A stretch of 45,465 nucleotides of DNA from Anaerolineales bacterium (GCA_024763355.1 JANTFR010000002.1:1-45465); one strand, 5' to 3'. Positions 14,175-45,020 are shown, counted from the first letter of the stretch. Notes: a model not told the origin generated them from the sequence alone. Translations and numbers: made by a program.

Positions 14175-15446
14175 CTACGGTCGAATCACGTCGATGCCGC
14201 CCATCCAGGGGCGCAGGACTTCGGGGACGATTACCGAGCCGTCGGGCTGCTGGTAGTTCTCCAGAATGGCAATCATCGTGCGGGGCACACCCAGTCCGGA
14301 GCCGTTGAGGGTGTAAGGGTAGCGGGTGCGCTTCTCCCCTTCGGGGCGGTAGCGCACACCGGCGCGGCGGGCCTGGAAATCGCCCACACAAGAAACCGAG
14401 GAGACTTCCAGCCATTCCTTCACACCCGGCGACCAAACTTCGATATCATAGGTAATTTGCGCCTTTTCGCCCAGGTCGCCGGTGCAGAGTTGCACGATGC
14501 GGTAGGTCAGCCCCAATTCGGCGCAGGTCTGGGAGGCATCGGCCAGCATCTTCTCCAGTTCGGCGTCGGCGTCTTCGGGAGAGCAGTAGATGTACATCTC
14601 CACCTTGTCGAACTGGTGGCCGCGCTTGATGCCGCGCACATCGCGCCCGGCGCTCATCTTCTCGCGGCGGAAACAGGGGGTATAGGCCGTATAACGCCGC
14701 GGCAGGGAGGCCCCGTCCAGAATTTCCCCCATATGAAGGCCGGTCAGGGGCACTTCGGCGGTGGGAACCATCCACAGGTCTTCCTCGTGGTCTTTGTACA
14801 TGTTGGCCTGGAATTTGGGCAATTCCCCGGCAGCGAACATGGTTTCGCTCTTGACCATGAAAGGGGTGTACTTTTCGGTGTAGCCCTGACGGATGTGCAA
14901 ATCCAGCATCCAGGCAATCAGGGCACGCTGCAAGCGCGCTCCGGCCCCGCTGAGGACGTAAAAGCGCGAACCGGTCATCTTGACGCCCTGCTCAAAGTTG
15001 ATGATACCCAGAGCAGGCCCCAAATCCCAATGGGGCTGCACCTCGAAATCGGGCTGGCGCGGTTCGCCCACGGTGCGGAGCACCACGTTTTCAGATTCGT
15101 CCGCCCCAAGGGGGACGCGGGGGTCCGGCACGTTGGGGAAAGTCGCCATCAGGTCGTTCAGTTGCCCCTGTACCTGACGCAACTGTTCGTCCAGTTGGGC
15201 AATCTGGCCGCCGACGGCGCGCATGGCCTCAATTTTAGCCTGGCGTTCGGCTTTGTCTTTGCTGCGCCCGATTTCTTTGGAGACGCGATTGCGTTCGGCC
15301 TTGAGGGCCTCCACCTCGCGGAGAAGGTCGCGGCGCAGGGTGTCCAATTTGATGACTTCGTCTACGGGGGCGGGGTCCATACCGCGCTTGCGGAGGGCCT
15401 CGCGCACTACGTCAGGGGTTTCGCGAAAGAGTTTGATGTCGAGCAT
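14175..15446 (-). CDS. serS: serine--tRNA ligase
   Basis: 423 aa. N-terminal coiled-coil arm and class II motifs ([27 protein letters not shown]). Confidence 0.95.
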
Positions 15447-15460
15447 GGGAAGAGGGGAGA

Positions 15461-15511
15461 GGTTGGTAGTTGGTGGTCAGTGGTCTATGGTCAGTGGTCT
15501 GCGGTCTACAG
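15461..15511 (-). repeat. GACCACTGACCATA-type tandem words in the serS leader
   Basis: The minus strand reads CCTGACTGTAGACCGCAGACCACTGACCATAGACCACTGACCACCAACTACCAACC. It fills the lysS-serS spacer. Confidence 0.85.
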
Positions 15512-17023
15512 TCAGGAATTGCGTTCGCGGAGATGGGGGAAGAGTATCACTTCGCGGATGGAGGGGCGGTCGGTGAGAAGCATGGTAAGACGGTCAATGC
15601 CCATCCCGAAGCCGCCATTGGGGGGCATGCCGTAGCGCATGGCACGCAGGTAATCCTCGTCTACGGGATGGCGCTCCTCGTCGTCGGCGGCGTAGGCGCG
15701 CCCCATTTCAAGGAAGCGGGCCTCCTGGTCGAGGGGGTCGTTGAGTTCGGTGAAGGCGTTGCACAGTTCCATGCCGCCCATGAAGCCCTCGAAACGCTCT
15801 ACCGTGGAGGGGTCGCCGGGTTTGCTCTTGGCAAGGGGCGAAATATCACGGGGGTAGTCGTACAAAAAGGTGGGCTGAATCAAGTTGGGTTCCACAAAAT
15901 CACCCAAAAGGGCGTCAATCAATTTACCGCGCGGCGTTCCGGGTTTCGGATTCATTTCGCGGGCACGCATCACCTCCGCAAGGGAGTCCGCATCCGGGTA
16001 ATCCGCAATATCCAGGCCGGCGTATTCGAGGATGGCTTCCCGCAAATTCAGCCGCCGCCAGGGTTTCCCCAGGTCAATTTCGTGCCCCTGATAGGTGAAG
16101 GTGGTTTTGCCGAGGGCTTGTTGAGCGGTGTAACGCAGCATCTCCTCGGTAAAATCCATCACGGCACGGTAATCGGCGTAAGCCATGTAGAATTCCAGTT
16201 GGGTGAACTCCGGGTTGTGCTTGAAAGAGACGCCCTCGTTGCGGAAATCGCGCCCGATTTCGTAAACGCGCTCGAAACCGCCCACCAACAGACGCTTGAG
16301 ATAAAGTTCGAAGGAAATCCGCAGGTAGAGGTCTTGCTTGAGTTGGTTGTGATGGGTGACGAAAGGACGCGCCGCCGCGCCGCCGTAAATGGGCTGGAGG
16401 ATGGGGGTCTCCACCTCCAGAAAGCCGTGTTCATCCAGGAAATCGCGCAGGGCGCGCAAGATTCGGGAGCGGGTGCGGAAGACCTCCCGCACGTCGGGGT
16501 TGACGGCCAAATCGGCGTAACGCTGGCGGTAGCGGGTTTCGGGGTCGGTCAGAGCCGCATGGCGGACAACCTCGCCGTCCACAATTTCATCTTTGGCAGC
16601 CGGCAGGGGGGTGATGGCCTTGGCCGCCATGTTGAAAGTCTCTACCCGCAGGGTGATTTCGCCGGTGCGAGTGCGGAACATCTCGCCTTCGGCCTGGATG
16701 AAATCGCCCAGGTCGAAATCGCGGGTGAGGCGTTTCATGGCCTCCTTACCAATATCGTTGACGCGGAAGAAGAGTTGCAGGCGGCCATCGCCGTCTTCGA
16801 TGTGAGCGAAAGCAATTTTGCCCATCGGGCGCATGGAGCGCAAACGTCCCGCCACGGCAGCGCGCACGGGGTCCCCGTCTTTTTTCTCGGCGGCCTCGTA
16901 AGCGGCAATCGCCTGGGCGCTGGTGTGGGTACGTTCCAGCCGCGGGGGATAGGGTTCAATGCCTTCGGCGCGCAGGCGGCGCAGTTTTTCAAGGCGGTTT
17001 TTTTCGAGAGGCGTGTAATTCAT
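15512..17023 (-). CDS. lysS: lysine--tRNA ligase (class II)
   Basis: 503 aa. OB anticodon-binding domain plus YEIGRDFRNEGVSFKHNPEFT and GMGIDRL motifs. Confidence 0.95.
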   Translation of the reverse strand: MNYTPLEKNRLEKLRRLRAEGIEPYPPRLERTHTSAQAIAAYEAAEKKDGDPVRAAVAGRLRSMRPMGKIAFAHIEDGDGRLQLFFRVNDIGKEAMKRLTRDFDLGDFIQAEGEMFRTRTGEITLRVETFNMAAKAITPLPAAKDEIVDGEVVRHAALTDPETRYRQRYADLAVNPDVREVFRTRSRILRALRDFLDEHGFLEVETPILQPIYGGAAARPFVTHHNQLKQDLYLRISFELYLKRLLVGGFERVYEIGRDFRNEGVSFKHNPEFTQLEFYMAYADYRAVMDFTEEMLRYTAQQALGKTTFTYQGHEIDLGKPWRRLNLREAILEYAGLDIADYPDADSLAEVMRAREMNPKPGTPRGKLIDALLGDFVEPNLIQPTFLYDYPRDISPLAKSKPGDPSTVERFEGFMGGMELCNAFTELNDPLDQEARFLEMGRAYAADDEERHPVDEDYLRAMRYGMPPNGGFGMGIDRLTMLLTDRPSIREVILFPHLRERNS

Positions 17024-19984: not shown

Positions 19985-19993
19985 CCTCATCTG

Positions 19994-20081
19994 CGGAGAG
20001 GGTGGGATTCGAACCCACGGTGGCCCAAAGGACCACAGCGGTTTTCGAGACCGCCCCGTTCGTCCACTCCGGCACCTCTCC
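19994..20081 (-). tRNA. tRNA-Ser (anticodon CGA), long variable arm, CCA not encoded
   Basis: The reverse complement folds as acceptor GGAGAGG/CCTCTCC, anticodon stem-loop GCGGT-CTCGAAA-ACCGC, variable arm GTGGTCCTTTGGGCCAC and T-arm GTGGGTTCGAATCCCAC. Confidence 0.9.
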
Positions 20082-35733: not shown

Positions 35734-37146
35734 ATGAACTCTGAATCTTTCCATACCATCGTCATCGGCGCAGGCTCCGGCGGGATGACCGTCGCGGTCG
35801 GAATGGCGACTCTTGGCTACTCCGTGGCCCTCATCGAGGGCGCTCATGTGGGCGGCGACTGCACCAACGTGGGCTGCGTGCCCTCCAAGACCCTCATCCA
35901 CCTGGCGCGGGAGTTCCGCCCCGGCGACGACCCCGACGAAGTGCTGCGTACAGTCATCCGCAAGCGCGATGCCCTGCGCGACAAGGAAACCGAGGAAGTG
36001 CGCCACATGGAAAACGTGACCTTCATCGAGGGCTGGGCCGCCTTTCAGGGGCCGCACACCCTGGAGGTGCAGCAGGCCGACGGGGAGAAGCGCACCTTCA
36101 CGGGCAAAAATATCGTGATTGCCACCGGGGCGCGGCCGCGTCCCCTGAAAATCCCCGGTCTGCCTGCGGAGCGCGCCCTGACCAACGAGTCGCTTTTCGA
36201 TTTGCGGGACGCGCCGAAGCATCTCGCCATCGTCGGGGCGGGCATCATCGCCCTGGAAATGGCCTTCGCCTTCCACAAACTGGGGGTGCGGGTCAGCATC
36301 ATCGCCCTGGACGAACGTCCCATCCCGCGCGCCATCCCGGAGGCCTCCGCAGCCATCCAAAACGAACTGGAGCGGCGCGGCATCGCCACTTTTTACGGCG
36401 CGACCGCCGATTCCTACGATGAAGCCACGCGCACGCTGTCCATCCGCCGGGGCGAGAAAATCATCCCCTTGCCGGAGGTGGACAAGGTACTGATTGCCAT
36501 CGGGCGGATGCGTAACCTGGAGCGTCTCAACCTGGAGGCCGCCGGAGTGCGCTACGACTCTCGCAGCGGCATCGCCGTCAACCACTACGGGCAGACCTCC
36601 GTCAAGGGGGTCTTTGCCATCGGGGACGTGACGCCCACGTCGGCCTTCACCCATTCCGCCAACGCCCAGGGGCGGCGGGTGGTACAGTACATCGCCTTCC
36701 CGTGGATGCCGGTTTCGCGCCGCGAGCCGCTTTACCCCAACGCCACCTTCAGCGACCCCGAAATCGCCGCCGTAGGCACGCCCGCGAACGAGCAGAACTG
36801 CCATCCCCAGGCCGTGCGCCGTATCCGCGTGGATTTCAAGACCCACACCGACCGCGGCTACACCGATGAGGTCGAAAACGGCTTCATCATCGTGGACGCC
36901 GTGCGCCTGACAGGGCGCATCATCCACGCCACCATCGTCGGGCCGCACGCCTCGGAGATGATTTCCTTCTTTACCCTGGCGATAGCACGCGGCATTTCGC
37001 TCTACAAAATCTACCGGCTGGTGTATCCGTACCCCACGTTTTCCAGCGGGATTTTGAAAGTGGCCGATTTCTTCATGCAGGAGACCCTCACCAACCTGCC
37101 CCGCGAAGCAGGCGCGTACCTGCGCTACCGCTTTGCCCGTCCGTAA
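35734..37146 (+). CDS. FAD-dependent pyridine nucleotide-disulfide oxidoreductase (class I, mercuric/dihydrolipoamide reductase-like)
   Basis: VIGAGSGG dinucleotide fold, redox-active disulfide GGDCTNVGCVPSK, second Rossmann IVGAGIIALE, C-terminal dimerisation domain. Confidence 0.85.
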   Translation: MNSESFHTIVIGAGSGGMTVAVGMATLGYSVALIEGAHVGGDCTNVGCVPSKTLIHLAREFRPGDDPDEVLRTVIRKRDALRDKETEEVRHMENVTFIEGWAAFQGPHTLEVQQADGEKRTFTGKNIVIATGARPRPLKIPGLPAERALTNESLFDLRDAPKHLAIVGAGIIALEMAFAFHKLGVRVSIIALDERPIPRAIPEASAAIQNELERRGIATFYGATADSYDEATRTLSIRRGEKIIPLPEVDKVLIAIGRMRNLERLNLEAAGVRYDSRSGIAVNHYGQTSVKGVFAIGDVTPTSAFTHSANAQGRRVVQYIAFPWMPVSRREPLYPNATFSDPEIAAVGTPANEQNCHPQAVRRIRVDFKTHTDRGYTDEVENGFIIVDAVRLTGRIIHATIVGPHASEMISFFTLAIARGISLYKIYRLVYPYPTFSSGILKVADFFMQETLTNLPREAGAYLRYRFARP

Positions 37147-41886: not shown

Positions 41887-41916
41887 CGTGGCACCTTTCC
41901 CTGTGGTTTTTGGGAG

Positions 41917-41925
41917 ATTGTACCA
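41917..41925 (-). promoter_or_regulatory. extended -10 element TGGTACAAT upstream of the UDG gene
   Basis: The minus strand reads TTTTGGTACAATCTCCC, about 30 nt before ATG 41886. Confidence 0.45.
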
Positions 41926-41943
41926 AAATCGGGCGCGCCATCC

Positions 41944-41989
41944 AGGTGACAGTCACTTGCGAAGTGACTGTCACCTGACTGTCACCTGA
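41944..41989. repeat. GTGACAG palindrome copy 1 (perfect 15-bp stem) plus a partial extra arm containing the PRX-like gene stop
   Basis: AGGTGACAGTCACTT-GCG-AAGTGACTGTCACCT followed by GACTGTCACCTGA. Probable terminator of the halogenase operon. Confidence 0.8.
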
Positions 41990-42503
41990 GGGCGTCCAGG
42001 AGGGTCTCCACAGGAGGGCGGTCGGTGGGGTCGTGGCTGCGATAGGCCAGCAGCATCCGACCGGATGTGTGTACCACGAAATCGCCGCCCAGTTGGGCGG
42101 TATCGTCGCCGTGCGAATCGCCGCCGTGGATGCCTTGCAGGTTGCGGCGCAGGTAAAGCAACAGCGTGGCCGGATTGTGCGAACGCCATAAGGAACGCTC
42201 CAGCCCATAGGCGTGATAGACGCGGCGTTCCCGGTCGAGGAGCACGTCGAAAGCGTCGCAGGTTTGGCCGAGCCAGCGCTGAACGGCGGGGCGCTCTCCG
42301 AAAGAGAGCAGCGCCACGCGAGTCTTGCGCCGGCGAAATTCTTCCTGGGAGTGGCACAACTGTGCCACGTGCTCTCGGCAGGGTATTCAACCCAGGTGAC
42401 GCAGGAAGACCAGCACCACGTGATGGCCGTCCTGCCGCAGGTCGCTCAGGGAGCGGGTTCCATTGTGCAGGGAGGGGAGGGTGAAAGGGGGGGCGTATTC
42501 CAT
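41982..42503 (-). CDS. PRX-like2/AhpC-TSA thioredoxin-fold protein, candidate selenoprotein (in-frame TGA 42387-42389 read as Sec, U-x-x-C)
   Basis: The frame from ATG 42503 continues through the single TGA into track ORF 41982..42368 with no other stop. The junction reads VLVFLRHLG-U-IPC-REHVAQL, so the TGA is at the first position of the expected CxxC. A hairpin lies 18 nt downstream. The alternative is a pseudogene. Confidence 0.5.
42351..42368 (-). promoter_or_regulatory. candidate bacterial SECIS-like hairpin downstream of the in-frame TGA
   Basis: The mRNA reads UGA-AUACCCUGCCGAGAGCAC-GUGGCAC-AGUU-GUGCCAC: a perfect 7-bp stem whose apical loop starts 25 nt after the UGA. Confidence 0.4.
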
Positions 42504-42514
42504 AAGGGGTTCTC

Positions 42515-43123
42515 TCAAGAGGGGGGAAACGTCTTCCAGGCCCAGAAGAGACGCTGGAAGGCGGTGAAAAGCACCAAAACGGCGAAGACGCAGAACAAGG
42601 GCGTGATTTGCGCAGGAAAGACCAGAAAGAGGGCGTAGGCCACCACGGTCTCGAAGCCGCCAATCAGCCCGGCGGGCATCACCACGCTGGTCTGCGTCTG
42701 TGGGGAGCGGGCGGAGCGCTTCTCCAGGAGAGCGGCCAGGTACATCCACGAGGCGCTGTTGATGTAGAAACTCGCCAGCAGGAAAGCCGCCGCCAGGTAA
42801 CAGGCCGGTTCCCGGATAGACCACGCCAACCCCAGGGGCACGAGGGCGTAGACGACGAAATCCAGGAGGATATCCAGATAGCCGCCGAAGTCGCTCTGCC
42901 GTCCGTGGAGGCGCGCCAGCAGGCCGTCGAGGCCGTCCAAAGTGCGGTTGAGCAGCCAGAGGGCCAGCGCGCCCCAATACCAGCCGAGGGCGGCCAGTCC
43001 GGCGGCGGCCAGGCCAAAGACGAGCGCCGTCCAGGTGACCAAGCTGGGGGAGACGCGCTCCATACGCGCCGCCACGGGAGTTCCCAGACGGTCTTTCCAC
43101 ATCCGCAGGGGGTTGTCGAACAT
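42515..43123 (-). CDS. CDP-alcohol phosphatidyltransferase family protein
   Basis: Exact family signature DGLDGLLAR-x8-G-x3-D-x3-D (LDGLDGLLARLHGRQSDFGGYLDILLDF). Multi-TM. Start at ATG 43123 with SD ggaggt. Confidence 0.85.
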   Translation of the reverse strand: MFDNPLRMWKDRLGTPVAARMERVSPSLVTWTALVFGLAAAGLAALGWYWGALALWLLNRTLDGLDGLLARLHGRQSDFGGYLDILLDFVVYALVPLGLAWSIREPACYLAAAFLLASFYINSASWMYLAALLEKRSARSPQTQTSVVMPAGLIGGFETVVAYALFLVFPAQITPLFCVFAVLVLFTAFQRLFWAWKTFPPS

Positions 43124-43140
43124 CGCTGAACCTCCAAAAG

Positions 43141-44829
43141 TCAAATCGCCAGCCGCGGACGCTCGCGCCGGCGTTTCCAGCGCAGGAAGGCGCGGCTGTA
43201 ACGTACCTGCTCGCGCCCGCCGAGGGCCAGCAACTCCCCCAGGGACATCCCGCCGAAGAAGTGTCGGCGGTAGTCGCCGTCTCCCATGAAGCCCTTATGA
43301 GGGTTGAGAAGCGAGAGACGGATTTTGTTGCGCGGCAGGTGGCTTGCGCCGCGCAAGATGGCCCGAAAAGGTTCGGGGAGCCAGGGGAAGGTCTCGAAGA
43401 GACGATTCGCCTCCTCCACAACGCGCCCCACCTGAAGGGGGTCTGCCGCGTCCACATTTTCGAAGAGGGTATCCACCTGTTCTTGCAGGGCAAAAAAGGG
43501 GGCGAATCCGCCTCCGGCCAGGCGGTTTCCCTCCAGCAGGGAGAGATATTCATGCCGGGTATGGGAACGCATCCGGGCGATGCTCAGTTGCAGGTATTCC
43601 AGATAAGCCCCCAGGAGCCATTGCACGGAGTAAACGCGCCACAAATCGGGGTGCGTCCAGGATTTGATGGCGTTGGCGCACAGGCGGTCGTGCATGGCGA
43701 CGTAGTGCTGGGTCATGGTCTCCAGGCGGGCGAAGTTTTCGGGGGCGAAGTCGTTCTCGGCACAGGCGCGCAGCAGGGCGTCGGCCAGCACCATGACGGT
43801 CATGTGGGCCACGTACAGGCCTTTGGAGAAGAGCGGGTCAATGAAACCGGCGGCGTGTCCCAGCAAAGTCCAGCGTTCCCCGACGACGCGGGTGGATGCG
43901 TATTGCAGGCGCGGCGCACGCGTCCAGGGGCGCACCGCTTTGGCCTCCCGAAACTGGGATTGCAAGGCCGGGAAGCGGGCGGTGAGGGCGGCGAACTCCT
44001 GTGCCGGAGTGAGGCCGGGTTGCTCCGGATACTGCCGCGGGTCGAGCAGCAGTCCCACGCTGCACAGGGGGTTGGTGGAATCCCGATGGTTGTCGAAGGG
44101 GATGACCCATAGCCAGCCGCCCTCGAAGAGGTGGTGCAGCGTTCCCTCCGACCAAAGGAAGGGCACACCCGTTTGGGTGCGGGGGACGGCAATCTCGTCG
44201 AAGTTAGGCACGTCAATCATGTGGGTGAACATGCCGCGGGTGTGGGTCTGGAGGTCGTGACGGCGGAGACCGAAGCGCGCCGCCACCAGCGAGCGGAAGC
44301 CCCCCGCATCCACCAGGAAGCGCGCCCGATAGGTCTCGCCCTGCCGGGTAGTGACAGCCACCCCGTCGGCGCGGATGTCGAAATCGGCAACCGGGGTGTT
44401 TTGCAGGAGGCGCGCCCCGTAGGAGATGGCGACCGCGCTCAGGAAGTAGTCGCTGTCTTGCCGGTAGATGTGGACTTCGTGCCCGTAGGGCTGCCGCGGG
44501 ATGACGGCTTGCAGCACCCCCTCCGGCTGCGGAACTTCCCCCGGCGTGTGCCGCACGAACCCGAAGTGCCGTTTGACCCCGTGGGAAGTGCCCGCGTAAG
44601 GCAGGTAGTTTTCCGAACTGAAGTAGGCCAGTTCGGGCAGGTCGTAGAAGCGCGCCAGGGCGCGCAGCATCTCGGAGGTCTCCAGGATGGTGGATTCCCC
44701 GATGGCAAATTTGGGGTGCTGTCCGGCTTCGAAGACGAGGACGGAAAGTCCCTGGCGGGCGAGGACGGCGGCCAGCGCCGCGCCTCCCATGCCCGAACCG
44801 ATGATGGCGACGTCGTAGAGGGTTTTCAT
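43141..44829 (-). CDS. FAD-dependent oxidoreductase resembling flavin-dependent halogenases
   Basis: GxGxxG (IIGSGMGGAA), FAIGES, a candidate Lys in GVKRHFGF, and the WxWxIP motif (GGWLWVIPF...SVGLL). 562 aa with a long C-terminal extension. Confidence 0.72.
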   Translation of the reverse strand: MKTLYDVAIIGSGMGGAALAAVLARQGLSVLVFEAGQHPKFAIGESTILETSEMLRALARFYDLPELAYFSSENYLPYAGTSHGVKRHFGFVRHTPGEVPQPEGVLQAVIPRQPYGHEVHIYRQDSDYFLSAVAISYGARLLQNTPVADFDIRADGVAVTTRQGETYRARFLVDAGGFRSLVAARFGLRRHDLQTHTRGMFTHMIDVPNFDEIAVPRTQTGVPFLWSEGTLHHLFEGGWLWVIPFDNHRDSTNPLCSVGLLLDPRQYPEQPGLTPAQEFAALTARFPALQSQFREAKAVRPWTRAPRLQYASTRVVGERWTLLGHAAGFIDPLFSKGLYVAHMTVMVLADALLRACAENDFAPENFARLETMTQHYVAMHDRLCANAIKSWTHPDLWRVYSVQWLLGAYLEYLQLSIARMRSHTRHEYLSLLEGNRLAGGGFAPFFALQEQVDTLFENVDAADPLQVGRVVEEANRLFETFPWLPEPFRAILRGASHLPRNKIRLSLLNPHKGFMGDGDYRRHFFGGMSLGELLALGGREQVRYSRAFLRWKRRRERPRLAI

Positions 44830-44917: not shown

Positions 44918-44954
44918 CAGGTGACAGTCACTTGCGAAGAGCCTGTCACCTGAC
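44918..44954. repeat. GTGACAG palindrome copy 2 (imperfect) in the leader of the halogenase-like operon
   Basis: CAGGTGACAGTCACTTGCGAAGAGCCTGTCACCTGAC shares its first 22 nt (CAGGTGACAGTCACTTGCGAAG) and last 12 nt (CTGTCACCTGAC) with copy 1. Confidence 0.75.
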
Positions 44955-44985
44955 ACCTCCTCGCCTTCGACAACTGGGGATTGTA

Positions 44986-45020
44986 CGAAAAACCAGGCCC
45001 CGGCGCAGGCCGGGACCTGG
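44986..45020 (-). terminator. intrinsic terminator after the hypothetical gene 45089..45436
   Basis: The minus strand reads CCAGGTCCCGGC-CTGC-GCCGGGGCCTGG followed by TTTTTCGT. Confidence 0.65.

What the first reader, a model, noticed from the sequence alone, without database searches (positions are those of the whole stretch)
41982..42503. Candidate selenoprotein: PRX-like thioredoxin-fold gene with TGA at the first position of its CxxC motif and a downstream hairpin
On the minus strand the frame opened by ATG 42503 (MEYAPPFTLPSLHNGTRSLSDLRQDGHHVVLVFLRHLG) meets TGA at 42389-42387. It then continues in the same frame, with no other stop, into the 128-codon track ORF 42368..41982.

Read through, the junction is VLVFLRHLG-U-IPC-REHVAQLCHSQEEF. 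This is the beta-strand / CxxC / helix arrangement of PRX-like2 (AhpC/TSA-type) proteins, with the TGA exactly where the first redox Cys belongs. Sec-for-Cys replacement in UxxC thiol-disulfide oxidoreductases is a well-known class of bacterial selenoproteins.

Eighteen nt after the UGA the mRNA forms a perfect 7-bp hairpin, GUGGCAC-AGUU-GUGCCAC (42368-42351). Its G/U-containing apical loop begins 25 nt from the UGA, within the usual bacterial SECIS window. An automatic annotation would call only a truncated 128-aa protein or a pseudogene.
Basis: partly seen in the sequence, partly recalled or inferred. Interest (0 to 1): 0.7.

Follow-up and report, generated by a model that had tools for sequence, protein, structure and literature searches.

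The report
Missed selenoprotein gene beside a halogenase
This is a real but ordinary selenocysteine-containing thioredoxin-fold redox gene of a known family (SelL-related / Prx-like, UxxC) that gene callers cut in two at its UGA codon; the unexpected part is that in about 50 related Chloroflexota genomes it sits in a conserved operon with a flavin-dependent halogenase.

Summary
ATG 42503, in-frame TGA 42389-42387, stop TGA 41984-41982 and the 7-bp hairpin 42368-42351 are all present on the minus strand.

- The 173-codon read-through product scores above the curated cut-off of NCBIfam NF040769, "SelL-related redox protein", and matches Pfam AhpC-TSA and AhpC-TSA_2.
- In 80 homologous loci from Chloroflexota genomes, the aligned codon is TGA in 79 and TGC (Cys) in one.
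- The peptide is conserved on both sides of the TGA, and the upstream stretch shows coding constraint.
- TGA still ends 47 of the 81 genes, so it has not been reassigned.
- The hairpin core GCAC-AGUU-GUGC is frozen at synonymous sites (Leu TTG in 77 of 77) and covaries (CG 37 / GC 31 at one pair). It is absent from the Cys form.

The Sec machinery could not be tested. The 45-kb window has no selA, selB, selD or tRNA-Sec. Published tables list Anaerolinea thermophila as SelD+, SelA+ and SelB+.

This is a new member of a known kind. One possibly new point: the gene is the third in a conserved operon, after a CtcP/PltM-like halogenase and a CDP-alcohol phosphatidyltransferase.

The parts
41982..42503 (-). 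Complete selenoprotein coding sequence: 173 codons plus stop, with Sec at codon 39. It is a SelL-related / Prx-like2 thioredoxin-fold protein with the redox motif U39-I-P-C42.
   Evidence: Translation; Pfam; NCBIfam NF040769 at 151 bits against a cut-off of 120; full-length tblastn matches in 80 loci.
42387..42389 (-). In-frame UGA read as selenocysteine.
   Evidence: TGA at the aligned codon in 79 of 80 related loci and TGC in L036. It aligns with the first Cys of CxxC in PDB 3kcm and 1st9.
42351..42368 (-). SECIS-like hairpin in the window: a 7-bp stem with an AGUU loop. The family-conserved core is 42366-42362 paired with 42357-42353, with the loop at 42361-42358.
   Evidence: Fold -12.6 kcal/mol, z = -3.0. 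Pair 24-37 is CG 37 / GC 31, pair 27-34 switches AU to GC in 4 sequences, and 0 of 500 shuffles reach the covariation score. Codons are frozen: TTG 77/77, CAG 77/77, GCA 69/77, against background use of 16.5%, 48% and 11.5%.
42501..42503 (-). Start codon ATG, 11 nt after the stop of the upstream gene (TGA 42517-42515).
   Evidence: Relatives have their start 38-44 codons upstream of the TGA.
41982..41984 (-). True stop codon of the gene, also TGA. This shows that TGA is not reassigned.
   Evidence: 47 of the 81 family genes end in TGA.
42515..43144 (-). Operon partner: CDP-alcohol phosphatidyltransferase family membrane protein (209 aa).
   Evidence: Pfam PF01066 1.2e-10. Weak NCBIfam matches to archaetidylinositol-phosphate synthase, below the cut-off. 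Directly upstream in 56 of 80 loci.
43141..44829 (-). Operon partner: flavin-dependent halogenase homologue (562 aa) of the CtcP/PltM type.
   Evidence: PDB 7xgb tetracycline 7-halogenase E = 7e-112 and PltM E = 1e-87. Motifs GWLWVIPF and FIDPLFSKG are present. Found in 53 of 80 loci. The order halogenase, transferase, selenoprotein occurs on one strand in 50.
41943..41979 (.). 37-nt palindrome immediately after the selenoprotein stop. A second copy lies at 44918-44954.
   Evidence: 5 half-site matches against 0.19 expected.
44918..44954 (.). Second copy of the palindrome, about 90 nt upstream of the halogenase start. It follows a terminator-like hairpin (45021-44992) and a TACAAT box.

Best explanation
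The region 42503-41982 (minus strand) is one intact gene for a 173-residue selenoprotein of the SelL-related / Prx-like2 branch of the thioredoxin fold. Its redox centre is U39-I-P-C42.

How it is made: UGA 42389-42387 is recoded to selenocysteine. The mRNA 18 nt downstream folds into a hairpin (core GCAC-AGUU-GUGC, 42366-42353). By inference this hairpin is the bacterial SECIS, bound by SelB carrying Sec-tRNA(Sec). The gene's own terminal UGA has no such hairpin and terminates normally.

How it works (inferred from the family): the selenolate sits at the N-terminal cap of helix alpha-1. It attacks an oxidised or electrophilic substrate, and Cys42 resolves the adduct into a selenenylsulfide, which a cellular reductant then reduces. 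The protein is therefore a UxxC thiol/selenol-disulfide oxidoreductase and not a canonical peroxiredoxin.

The gene is the last in a conserved three-gene operon, after a flavin-dependent halogenase and a CDP-alcohol phosphatidyltransferase. Its physiological substrate is therefore probably linked to that halogenase, but this last step is speculative.
For: Shown here:
- The in-frame TGA is as described.
- Family membership is above curated cut-offs.
- TGA is at the same codon in 79 of 80 loci from different Chloroflexota species, with GC content 44-65%. The flanking peptide VFLRHLG-U-[IL]PCREH is conserved.
- The stretch upstream of the TGA is under coding constraint. Entropy by codon position is 1.17, 0.96 and 1.62. 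Synonymous differences are 32% in frame and 6-8% in the shifted frames.
- Natural Cys forms exist at the same column: L036 (TGC) and P0005.
- Sec aligns with the first Cys of CxxC in ResA and 3kcm.
- In the AlphaFold model of the Cys homologue (pLDDT 85.5), that Cys lies between strand 35-39 and helix 46-57. The fold matches Prx and ResA structures with TM 0.65-0.73.
- Hairpin: synonymous sites are frozen (TTG 77/77, CAG 77/77, GCA 69/77, against 16.5%, 48% and 11.5% elsewhere in the same genes). There are compensatory changes (CG 37 / GC 31; AU to GC four times, which even turns Cys50 into Arg). 0 of 500 shuffles reach the covariation score, and slid controls are lower.
- The hairpin is absent from the Cys form L036.
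- TGA is a normal stop in these organisms: 47 of 81 family genes end in TGA, as does the upstream gene.
- An independent assembly (Logan SRR19843167) carries the identical gene.
- Synteny of the operon.

From the literature:
- Prx-like thiol:disulfide oxidoreductases with UxxC or UxxU are an accepted class of bacterial selenoproteins (PMC13188914, PMC2398784, PMC5029168 Table S3).
- Anaerolinea thermophila UNI-1 is listed as SelD+, SelA+ and SelB+ with 4 selenoproteins (PMC5029168 Tables S1 and S2).
Against: - No selA, selB, selD or tRNA-Sec is present in the 45-kb window or in the flanks of 60 related loci, so the machinery of this organism has not been seen.
- No Rfam SECIS family matches the region, even at E <= 10.
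- The conserved upper stem is only 5 bp with a 4-nt loop, which is short for a bacterial SECIS. Thermodynamic support in the 63-nt context is weak, z = -1.2.
- The shuffle control ignores phylogenetic relatedness, so its '0 of 500' is not a probability.
- There is no experimental evidence of selenium incorporation.
- The function is inferred from fold, motif and neighbours only.
Confidence: 0.9

Rival explanations
1. Pseudogene or sequencing error: a TGC-to-TGA nonsense change inactivated a CxxC Prx-like gene, and only the 128-aa remnant, if anything, is expressed.
For: A single base separates TGA from TGC. Automatic callers report a 128-aa ORF. One relative, L053, has a disrupted N-terminal region.
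Against: The same TGA is present in 79 of 80 species-level loci. There is purifying selection on both sides and no other stops or frameshifts. An independent assembly has the identical sequence. A co-conserved, covarying hairpin is present only in the TGA forms.
Confidence: 0.01
2. UGA is read by something other than Sec-tRNA: either a reassigned TGA (Trp or Gly, as some gene callers assumed) or near-cognate read-through that inserts Trp or Cys.
For: Six database proteins carry W at this column. The nucleotide after the UGA is C in about 40% of sequences, which is a weak termination context (own knowledge). The Sec machinery was not seen in the window.
Against: TGA terminates 47 of the 81 family genes, including this one and its upstream neighbour, so the code is standard. 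The column is the catalytic Cys of a CxxC motif, and Trp there would destroy the redox centre. The dedicated hairpin at SECIS distance is unexplained by plain read-through. The type species of the order has SelA, SelB and SelD (PMC5029168).
Confidence: 0.04
3. Two separate products by design: termination at UGA releases a 38-residue peptide, and the 128-residue C-terminal part is translated from GTG 42368 or a nearby start. The hairpin would act as a translational coupling or attenuation element and not as a SECIS.
For: Many relatives have an ATG two codons after the TGA, giving MPCREH.... Sec recoding is never complete: 30-40% in E. coli according to the abstract of PMC4513850. Some termination product is therefore expected.
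Against: Splitting after beta-strand 35-39 would remove two to three strands and the catalytic residue from a single thioredoxin-fold domain. The window has ATA and not ATG after the TGA, so that restart codon is not conserved. A Cys-form homologue is a single uninterrupted ORF.
Confidence: 0.04

Closest known systems
Bacterial 'Prx-like thiol:disulfide oxidoreductase' selenoproteins (PF00578, UxxC/UxxU; GOS classes Prx-like 1-3)
   Same: AhpC/TSA-type thioredoxin fold. Sec is at the first position of a UxxC motif. Cys-containing homologues are known. The SECIS lies inside the coding region just after the UGA (PMC13188914, PMC2398784, PMC5029168 Table S3).
   Different: Those classes were defined mostly from Deltaproteobacteria, Firmicutes and marine metagenomes. 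This clade is Anaerolineales/Chloroflexota, belongs to the PF13911 / NF040769 sub-branch, and sits in a halogenase operon that the papers I could search do not describe.
NCBIfam NF040769 'SelL-related redox protein'
   Same: The read-through protein scores 151 bits against a cut-off of 120 over residues 5-171. Several homologues carry this name in NCBI records.
   Different: The NCBI-named homologues found here (P0039, P0043, P0053) are annotated as N-terminally truncated proteins of 136-140 aa that start at MPCREH. They lack the Sec and the first 40 residues.
SelL (selenoprotein L of fish, invertebrates and marine bacteria)
   Same: Prx-like2-type thioredoxin fold with the redox motif at the same position. 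It is a selenoprotein (PMC2397514, PMC2398784).
   Different: SelL has two Sec residues (UxxU) that form a diselenide. Here the second position is Cys in 76 of 77 unique sequences and Tyr in one, so a selenenylsulfide is expected instead.
PRXL2 family (e.g. PRXL2B, prostamide/prostaglandin F synthase) and ResA/TlpA-type CxxC oxidoreductases
   Same: Sequence matches to PDB 9us9 (PRXL2B), ResA 1st9 and 3kcm, with the CxxC aligned. Structural matches have TM 0.64-0.73.
   Different: All of these use Cys. ResA and TlpA are extracytoplasmic and membrane-anchored, whereas this protein has no signal peptide or anchor in its 38-residue N-terminus.
E. coli fdhF-type bacterial SECIS
   Same: A hairpin inside the ORF shortly after the UGA, with G and U in the apical loop and a bulge below the upper stem in most family members. 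The consensus features are taken from my own knowledge of the bSECIS model.
   Different: The loop is AGUU closed by C-G. The G-U dinucleotide lies at nt 30-31 from the U of UGA, against 23-24 in fdhF (own knowledge). The upper stem is only 5 bp. No Rfam SECIS model matches.
Iodothyronine deiodinases and Bmp8 (thiol/selenol-based reductive dehalogenases)
   Same: These use a redox-active Sec or Cys pair to remove a halogen. Bmp8 is encoded together with flavin-dependent brominases (PMC5577590). That deiodinases have a Prx-like fold with Sec is from my own knowledge.
   Different: There is no sequence-level membership. Pfam T4_deiodinase was not among the matches. The functional analogy rests only on the operon with a halogenase.

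Membership tests
Bacterial selenoprotein gene (UGA-Sec plus SECIS) | In-frame UGA with protein-coding conservation on both sides | tested here: met
   79 of 80 loci have TGA at the column, and the flanking peptide is conserved. Upstream codon-position entropy is 1.17, 0.96 and 1.62, and synonymous differences are 32% in frame against 6-8% out of frame.
Bacterial selenoprotein gene (UGA-Sec plus SECIS) | Homologues with Cys at the position of the UGA | tested here: met
   L036 has TGC and P0005 has Cys. The first Cys of CxxC in ResA and 3kcm aligns with it.
Bacterial selenoprotein gene (UGA-Sec plus SECIS) | Stem-loop directly downstream of the UGA, with the apical loop about 16-37 nt away and G among the first loop bases (bSECIS consensus, own knowledge) | tested here: met
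   The loop AGUU starts 25 nt after the UGA. The stem is conserved and covaries. Synonymous sites are frozen. The hairpin is absent in the Cys form. Caveats: no dedicated bSECIS predictor was available, and the Rfam scan was negative.
Bacterial selenoprotein gene (UGA-Sec plus SECIS) | selA, selB, selC (tRNA-Sec) and selD in the same genome | not testable with these tools
   Only 45 kb of the genome is available, and none of these genes is in it. Indirect support: A. thermophila UNI-1 is SelD+, SelA+ and SelB+ (PMC5029168 Table S1).
Bacterial selenoprotein gene (UGA-Sec plus SECIS) | Selenium demonstrated in the protein | not testable with these tools
   This needs 75Se labelling or mass spectrometry.
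NCBIfam NF040769 SelL-related redox protein / Pfam PF13911 AhpC-TSA_2 | HMM score above the curated cut-off over the full length | tested here: met
   NF040769 scores 151.2 bits against 120, over residues 5-171. PF13911 scores 43.1 bits against 27, and PF00578 scores 59.3 bits against 26.
NCBIfam NF040769 SelL-related redox protein / Pfam PF13911 AhpC-TSA_2 | Thioredoxin fold with the redox motif at the N-terminus of helix alpha-1 | tested here: met
   AlphaFold model of the Cys homologue P0005, pLDDT 85.5, with Cys45 between strand 35-39 and helix 46-57. Foldseek matches Prx and ResA structures. The window protein itself could not be submitted.
SelL proper | UxxU motif (two Sec residues, diselenide) | tested here: not met
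   The fourth position of the motif is TGC or TGT (Cys) in 76 of 77 unique sequences, including the window.
Canonical peroxiredoxin | PxxxT/SxxC(U) peroxidatic motif | tested here: not met
   The window reads V-F-L-R-H-L-G-U. Position -7 is Val and position -3 is His, with no Pro or Thr/Ser. The motif is CxxC-like.
Iodothyronine deiodinase family (PF00837) | Match to the family profile | tested here: not met
   It is not among the Pfam matches at E <= 0.01.
Flavin-dependent halogenase (operon partner 43141-44829) | GxGxxG, WxWxIP and the Fx.Px.Sx.G motif, with homology to characterised halogenases | tested here: met
   IIGSGMGG, GWLWVIPF and FIDPLFSKG are present. The match to 7xgb is E = 7e-112 over residues 5-479, and a Lys in SHGVKRHFGF aligns with the Lys in CtcP's SHGQKSNFGF. 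Activity and substrate are unknown.

The most novel reading that the evidence does not exclude
The selenoprotein may be a dedicated partner of the co-transcribed flavin-dependent halogenase. Sec39 would accept or remove a halogen (X+) from the halogenated product, or from the halogenase's hypohalite or chloramine intermediate. That would form a selenenyl halide, which Cys42 resolves to a selenenylsulfide. This would be a bacterial, Prx-like2-fold analogue of deiodinase or Bmp8-type reductive dehalogenation. It would act on a small molecule or lipid head group that the CDP-alcohol phosphatidyltransferase then attaches to, or takes from, a membrane lipid. The three genes would then define an undescribed selenium-dependent halogenation/dehalogenation module in Anaerolineales.
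Probability: 0.12. Interest if true: 0.75.

Novelty: new member of a known kind. Interest (0 to 1): 0.35.

Why it matters
- **Annotation.** The gene is systematically mis-annotated. In public data this family appears as 127-140-aa N-terminally truncated proteins, as split 38-aa plus 128-aa calls, or with Trp at the Sec site. These calls lose the catalytic residue. Correcting this adds a selenoprotein to many Anaerolineales genomes and marks the lineage as a Sec user.
- **SECIS.** The data give a clean, covariation-supported SECIS for Chloroflexota, GCAC-AGUU-GUGC. It could seed a model for finding other selenoproteins in this phylum.
- **Function.** The conserved linkage to a CtcP/PltM-like halogenase and a CDP-alcohol phosphatidyltransferase gives a concrete, testable lead on what a SelL-related protein does. 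The function of this family is otherwise unknown.

Tried and rejected
- **Sec machinery in the window.** ARAGORN and Rfam found only tRNA-Ser(CGA). Pfam annotation of 38 probable genes found no SelA, SelB, SelD or YbbB. ARAGORN on the flanks of 60 related loci found no tRNA-Sec. This is uninformative, not negative, because only 45 kb is available.
- **Rfam at E <= 10 over 42280-42420.** No SECIS family matched, only a chance miRNA hit.
- **Outer stem pairs.** The window's 7-bp stem does not hold for the family: pairs 22-39 and 23-38 are unpaired in 56 and 42 of 75 sequences. A bulged model with pairs 22-40 and 21-41 fits better. A third lower pair, 20-42, is not supported: 56 of 75 are unpaired.
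- **Other selenoprotein genes in the window.** None found.
- **Literature on 'SelL-related redox protein' and on halogenase + CDP-alcohol transferase + selenoprotein.** Nothing found. The original SelL paper is not held.
- **UDG gene downstream as part of the unit.** Rejected, because it is syntenic only in the closest relative, L001.
- **The 37-nt palindrome as an operator.** It lies downstream of a TACAAT box at the halogenase end but upstream of one at the UDG end. The geometry is inconsistent, so its role is left open.

Full report
**1. Observation**

On the minus strand, ATG 42503 opens the frame MEYAPPFTLPSLHNGTRSLSDLRQDGHHVVLVFLRHLG. It meets TGA at 42389-42387 and continues in the same frame for 134 more codons to TGA 41984-41982. 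The mechanical ORF list shows only the 128-aa piece from GTG 42368. The hairpin GUGGCAC-AGUU-GUGCCAC lies at 42368-42351. It starts 18 nt after the UGA, and the loop starts 25 nt after it.

On its own the hairpin folds at -12.6 kcal/mol, z = -3.0. In a 63-nt context the z-score is only -1.2. The single sequence is therefore suggestive but not decisive.

**2. Family**

With Cys substituted for the stop, the 173-aa product matches:
- Pfam AhpC-TSA (4.7e-16), AhpC-TSA_2 (6.4e-11) and Redoxin;
- NCBIfam NF040769 "SelL-related redox protein", 151.2 bits against a curated cut-off of 120, over residues 5-171.

Against the PDB, the UxxC aligns with the CxxC of a thioredoxin-family protein (3kcm) and of ResA (1st9). 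PRXL2B (9us9) is also hit.

An AlphaFold model of the natural Cys-form homologue P0005 has pLDDT 85.5 and pTM 0.84. It places that Cys between strand 35-39 and helix 46-57, the classical nucleophile position of the thioredoxin fold. Foldseek finds Prx (AhpC2, AhpE) and ResA structures with TM 0.64-0.73.

The canonical peroxidatic motif PxxxT/SxxC is not present: the window reads V-F-L-R-H-L-G-U. The protein is therefore a CxxC-type oxidoreductase and not a typical peroxiredoxin.

**3. Comparative test of the UGA**

A protein search returned 211 hits.
- Most are 127-140 aa and cover only the C-terminal 72-74% of the query. Many start at MPCREH, just after the critical codon.
- The few full-length hits carry W at that column, which is what a caller produces when it switches to a TGA=Trp code.
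- One hit, P0005, carries Cys.

I then fetched 80 loci from species-representative genomes. All are Chloroflexota, mostly Anaerolineales MAGs, with 47-75% identity and tblastn matches across residues 1-173.
- The aligned codon is TGA in 79 loci and TGC in one, L036.
- The flanking peptide VFLRHLG-U-[IL]PCREH is nearly invariant.
- The frame upstream of the TGA is open for at least 36 codons in nearly all loci, with starts 38-44 codons upstream.
- The upstream 34 codons evolve like coding sequence. Entropy by codon position is 1.17, 0.96 and 1.62. Synonymous differences are 32% in frame and 6-8% in the other frames.
- TGA is still a stop in these organisms. 47 of the 81 family genes end in TGA, including the window's gene, and the upstream gene also stops at TGA 42517-42515.
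- An independent Logan assembly (SRR19843167) holds the identical gene, called as 38-aa and 128-aa fragments.

Taken together, these results exclude a pseudogene, a sequencing error and codon reassignment.

**4. The hairpin as SECIS**

In the alignment of 80 sequences from the TGA onwards (A3), the codons over the hairpin are frozen at synonymous sites:

| Codon | At the hairpin (unique sequences) | Comparison |
|---|---|---|
| Leu+10 | TTG 77/77 | Leu-5 and Leu-2 use 5-6 codons; TTG is 16.5% of other Leu codons in these genes |
| Gln+9 | CAG 77/77 | CAG is 48% of other Gln codons |
| Ala+8 | GCA 69, GCG 6 | GCA is 11.5% of other Ala codons |

The loci span 44-65% GC.

Pair counts for the inner five pairs (columns 24-28 with 33-37; window 42366-42362 with 42357-42353):
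- They are paired in essentially all sequences.
- Pair 24-37 is CG in 37 and GC in 31 sequences.
- Pair 27-34 switches from A-U to G-C in four sequences. This even converts the otherwise conserved Cys50 to Arg, so the RNA pairing is kept at the expense of the amino acid.
- 0 of 500 shuffles reach the observed covariation score, and all slid controls are lower. The shuffle control does not correct for relatedness.

The window's two outer pairs are not conserved. Most relatives continue instead with G22-C40 (67 of 75) and U21-G/A41 (63 of 75) beyond a small bulge.

The single Cys-form orthologue has GUCCUCGAGUUGUGC here and cannot form the hairpin.

The loop AGUU has G in its second position and starts 25 nt after the UGA. 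This fits the general bacterial SECIS model (own knowledge). No Rfam family matches. I give that little weight, because Rfam's bacterial SECIS models are lineage-specific.

**5. What could not be shown**

The window contains no selA, selB, selD, ybbB or tRNA-Sec. No other candidate Sec gene is present either.

Indirect support comes from Peng et al. 2016 (PMC5029168). Table S1 lists Anaerolinea thermophila UNI-1 as SelD+, SelA+ and SelB+, and Table S2 gives it 4 selenoproteins. L046, labelled an A. thermophila MAG, carries the TGA form.

**6. Surroundings**

The gene is the last of three co-directional, tightly spaced genes:

1. 43141-44829, a flavin-dependent halogenase homologue. It matches PDB tetracycline 7-halogenase CtcP at E = 7e-112 over about 475 residues and PltM at 1e-87. 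GxGxxG, GWLWVIPF and FIDPLFSKG are present.
2. 42515-43144, a CDP-alcohol phosphatidyltransferase family protein.
3. The selenoprotein.

The order halogenase, transferase, selenoprotein on one strand recurs in 50 of the 80 loci. Three more have the halogenase directly downstream. Most of the rest belong to the more distant "U-L-P-C" subclade or are cut by contig ends. The downstream family-4 UDG gene is syntenic only in the closest relative.

A 37-nt palindrome (CAGGTGACAGTCACTT-GCG-AAGTGACTGTCACCTG) brackets the operon at 41943-41979 and 44918-44954 and occurs nowhere else in the window. The half-site GGTGACAGTCAC also lies next to the gene in L002, L003, L021 and L029.

**7. Mechanism**

Shown:
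- a conserved UGA at the catalytic position of a UxxC thioredoxin-fold protein;
- a conserved, covarying hairpin at SECIS distance.

Inferred:
- SelB with Sec-tRNA(Sec) binds the hairpin and inserts Sec.
- The selenolate attacks its substrate, and Cys42 resolves the adduct to a selenenylsulfide.

Speculative:
- The substrate relates to the halogenase. One option is removal of leaked H2O2 or HOX. Another is deiodinase- or Bmp8-like reductive dehalogenation; the Bmp8 precedent is in PMC5577590.

**8. Comparison and novelty**

Prx-like UxxC/UxxU thiol:disulfide oxidoreductases are an accepted class of bacterial selenoproteins (PMC13188914, PMC2398784, PMC5029168 Table S3). NCBI already has a family model whose name links this clade to SelL. 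The protein is not SelL proper, because it has UxxC and not UxxU. The finding is therefore a new member of a known kind.

Two points appear under-described:
- Current annotation consistently loses the Sec and the N-terminus in this clade.
- The conserved operon with a halogenase and a CDP-alcohol phosphatidyltransferase did not appear in any paper in the searchable library.

**9. Verdict**

Confidence is about 0.9 that this is a genuine selenoprotein gene. Interest is 0.35: the result is correct and useful but would not surprise a specialist. The halogenase link is the part worth following.

Noticed in passing
window 42515-44829 (minus strand); L001-L052 mostly: The selenoprotein gene is preceded by a CtcP/PltM-like flavin-dependent halogenase and a CDP-alcohol phosphatidyltransferase. 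This arrangement occurs in 50 of 80 related loci, so it looks like a conserved three-gene operon of unknown function. Many Anaerolineales are anaerobes (own knowledge), which makes an O2-dependent halogenase curious.
   Followed up: partly
window 41943-41979 and 44918-44954: Two copies of a 37-nt palindrome bracket the operon exactly. Each is made of two 11-bp palindromes, GTGACAGTCAC / GTGACTGTCAC, 7 bp apart. It occurs nowhere else in the 45 kb. The half-site GGTGACAGTCAC also lies next to the family gene in L002, L003, L021 and L029. It could be an operator, an mRNA-end hairpin or a REP-like element.
   Followed up: partly
L074, L076, L077, L079 (codon +11 after the TGA): The otherwise conserved Cys50 (TGC) is Arg (CGC or CGT) in these loci, together with GCA to GCG at codon +8. 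This is a compensatory A-U to G-C change in the hairpin that alters the protein, which suggests the RNA structure outweighs this residue.
   Followed up: partly
L059:3103-3162: One relative has U-I-P-Y in place of U-I-P-C (TAC for TGC), so it lacks the resolving Cys. It may be a one-Sec variant, or a sequencing or assembly error.
   Followed up: no
L018 and L078 (same contig JBGSJZ010000050.1, about 23 kb apart) and L048 (same MAG): One Anaerolineaceae MAG carries three paralogous TGA-containing copies of this family. Another contig in the protein search (51,937 bp; P0018 and P0082) also holds two.
   Followed up: no
Database proteins P0002, P0004, P0006, P0017, P0021, P0029; P0039, P0043, P0053: The public gene calls for this family are systematically wrong. 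Full-length calls have Trp at the Sec codon (called with a TGA=Trp code). NCBI 'SelL-related redox protein' entries start at MPCREH, downstream of the Sec.
   Followed up: yes
L053:2940-3063: The region upstream of the TGA is interrupted by a stop 21 codons upstream, and the N-terminal peptide is not conserved. This may be a decayed copy or an assembly problem in this one relative.
   Followed up: no
L036 (TGC form): The only Cys-form orthologue among the 80 loci lacks the halogenase gene in its 3-kb upstream flank and has only a short match to the CDP-alcohol transferase. Sec-to-Cys conversion may go along with break-up of the operon.
   Followed up: no
window 35734-37146 (+): A class-I pyridine nucleotide-disulfide oxidoreductase (470 aa; Pyr_redox_2 plus the dimerisation domain) lies about 5 kb from the operon on the other strand. 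It is a conceivable reductant for the selenenylsulfide, but the link was not tested.
   Followed up: no
window 14175-17023 (-) and 19993-20081 (-): Seryl-tRNA synthetase, lysyl-tRNA synthetase and tRNA-Ser(CGA) cluster here. These are housekeeping genes and not evidence for Sec machinery.
   Followed up: no
window 44975-44992 and 41904-41925 (minus strand): Similar motifs, TTTTCGTACAAT and TTTTGGTACAAT (like an extended -10 box), precede the halogenase operon and the UDG gene. The second is also conserved in L001. The sigma-70 consensus scan called no promoter here.
   Followed up: no
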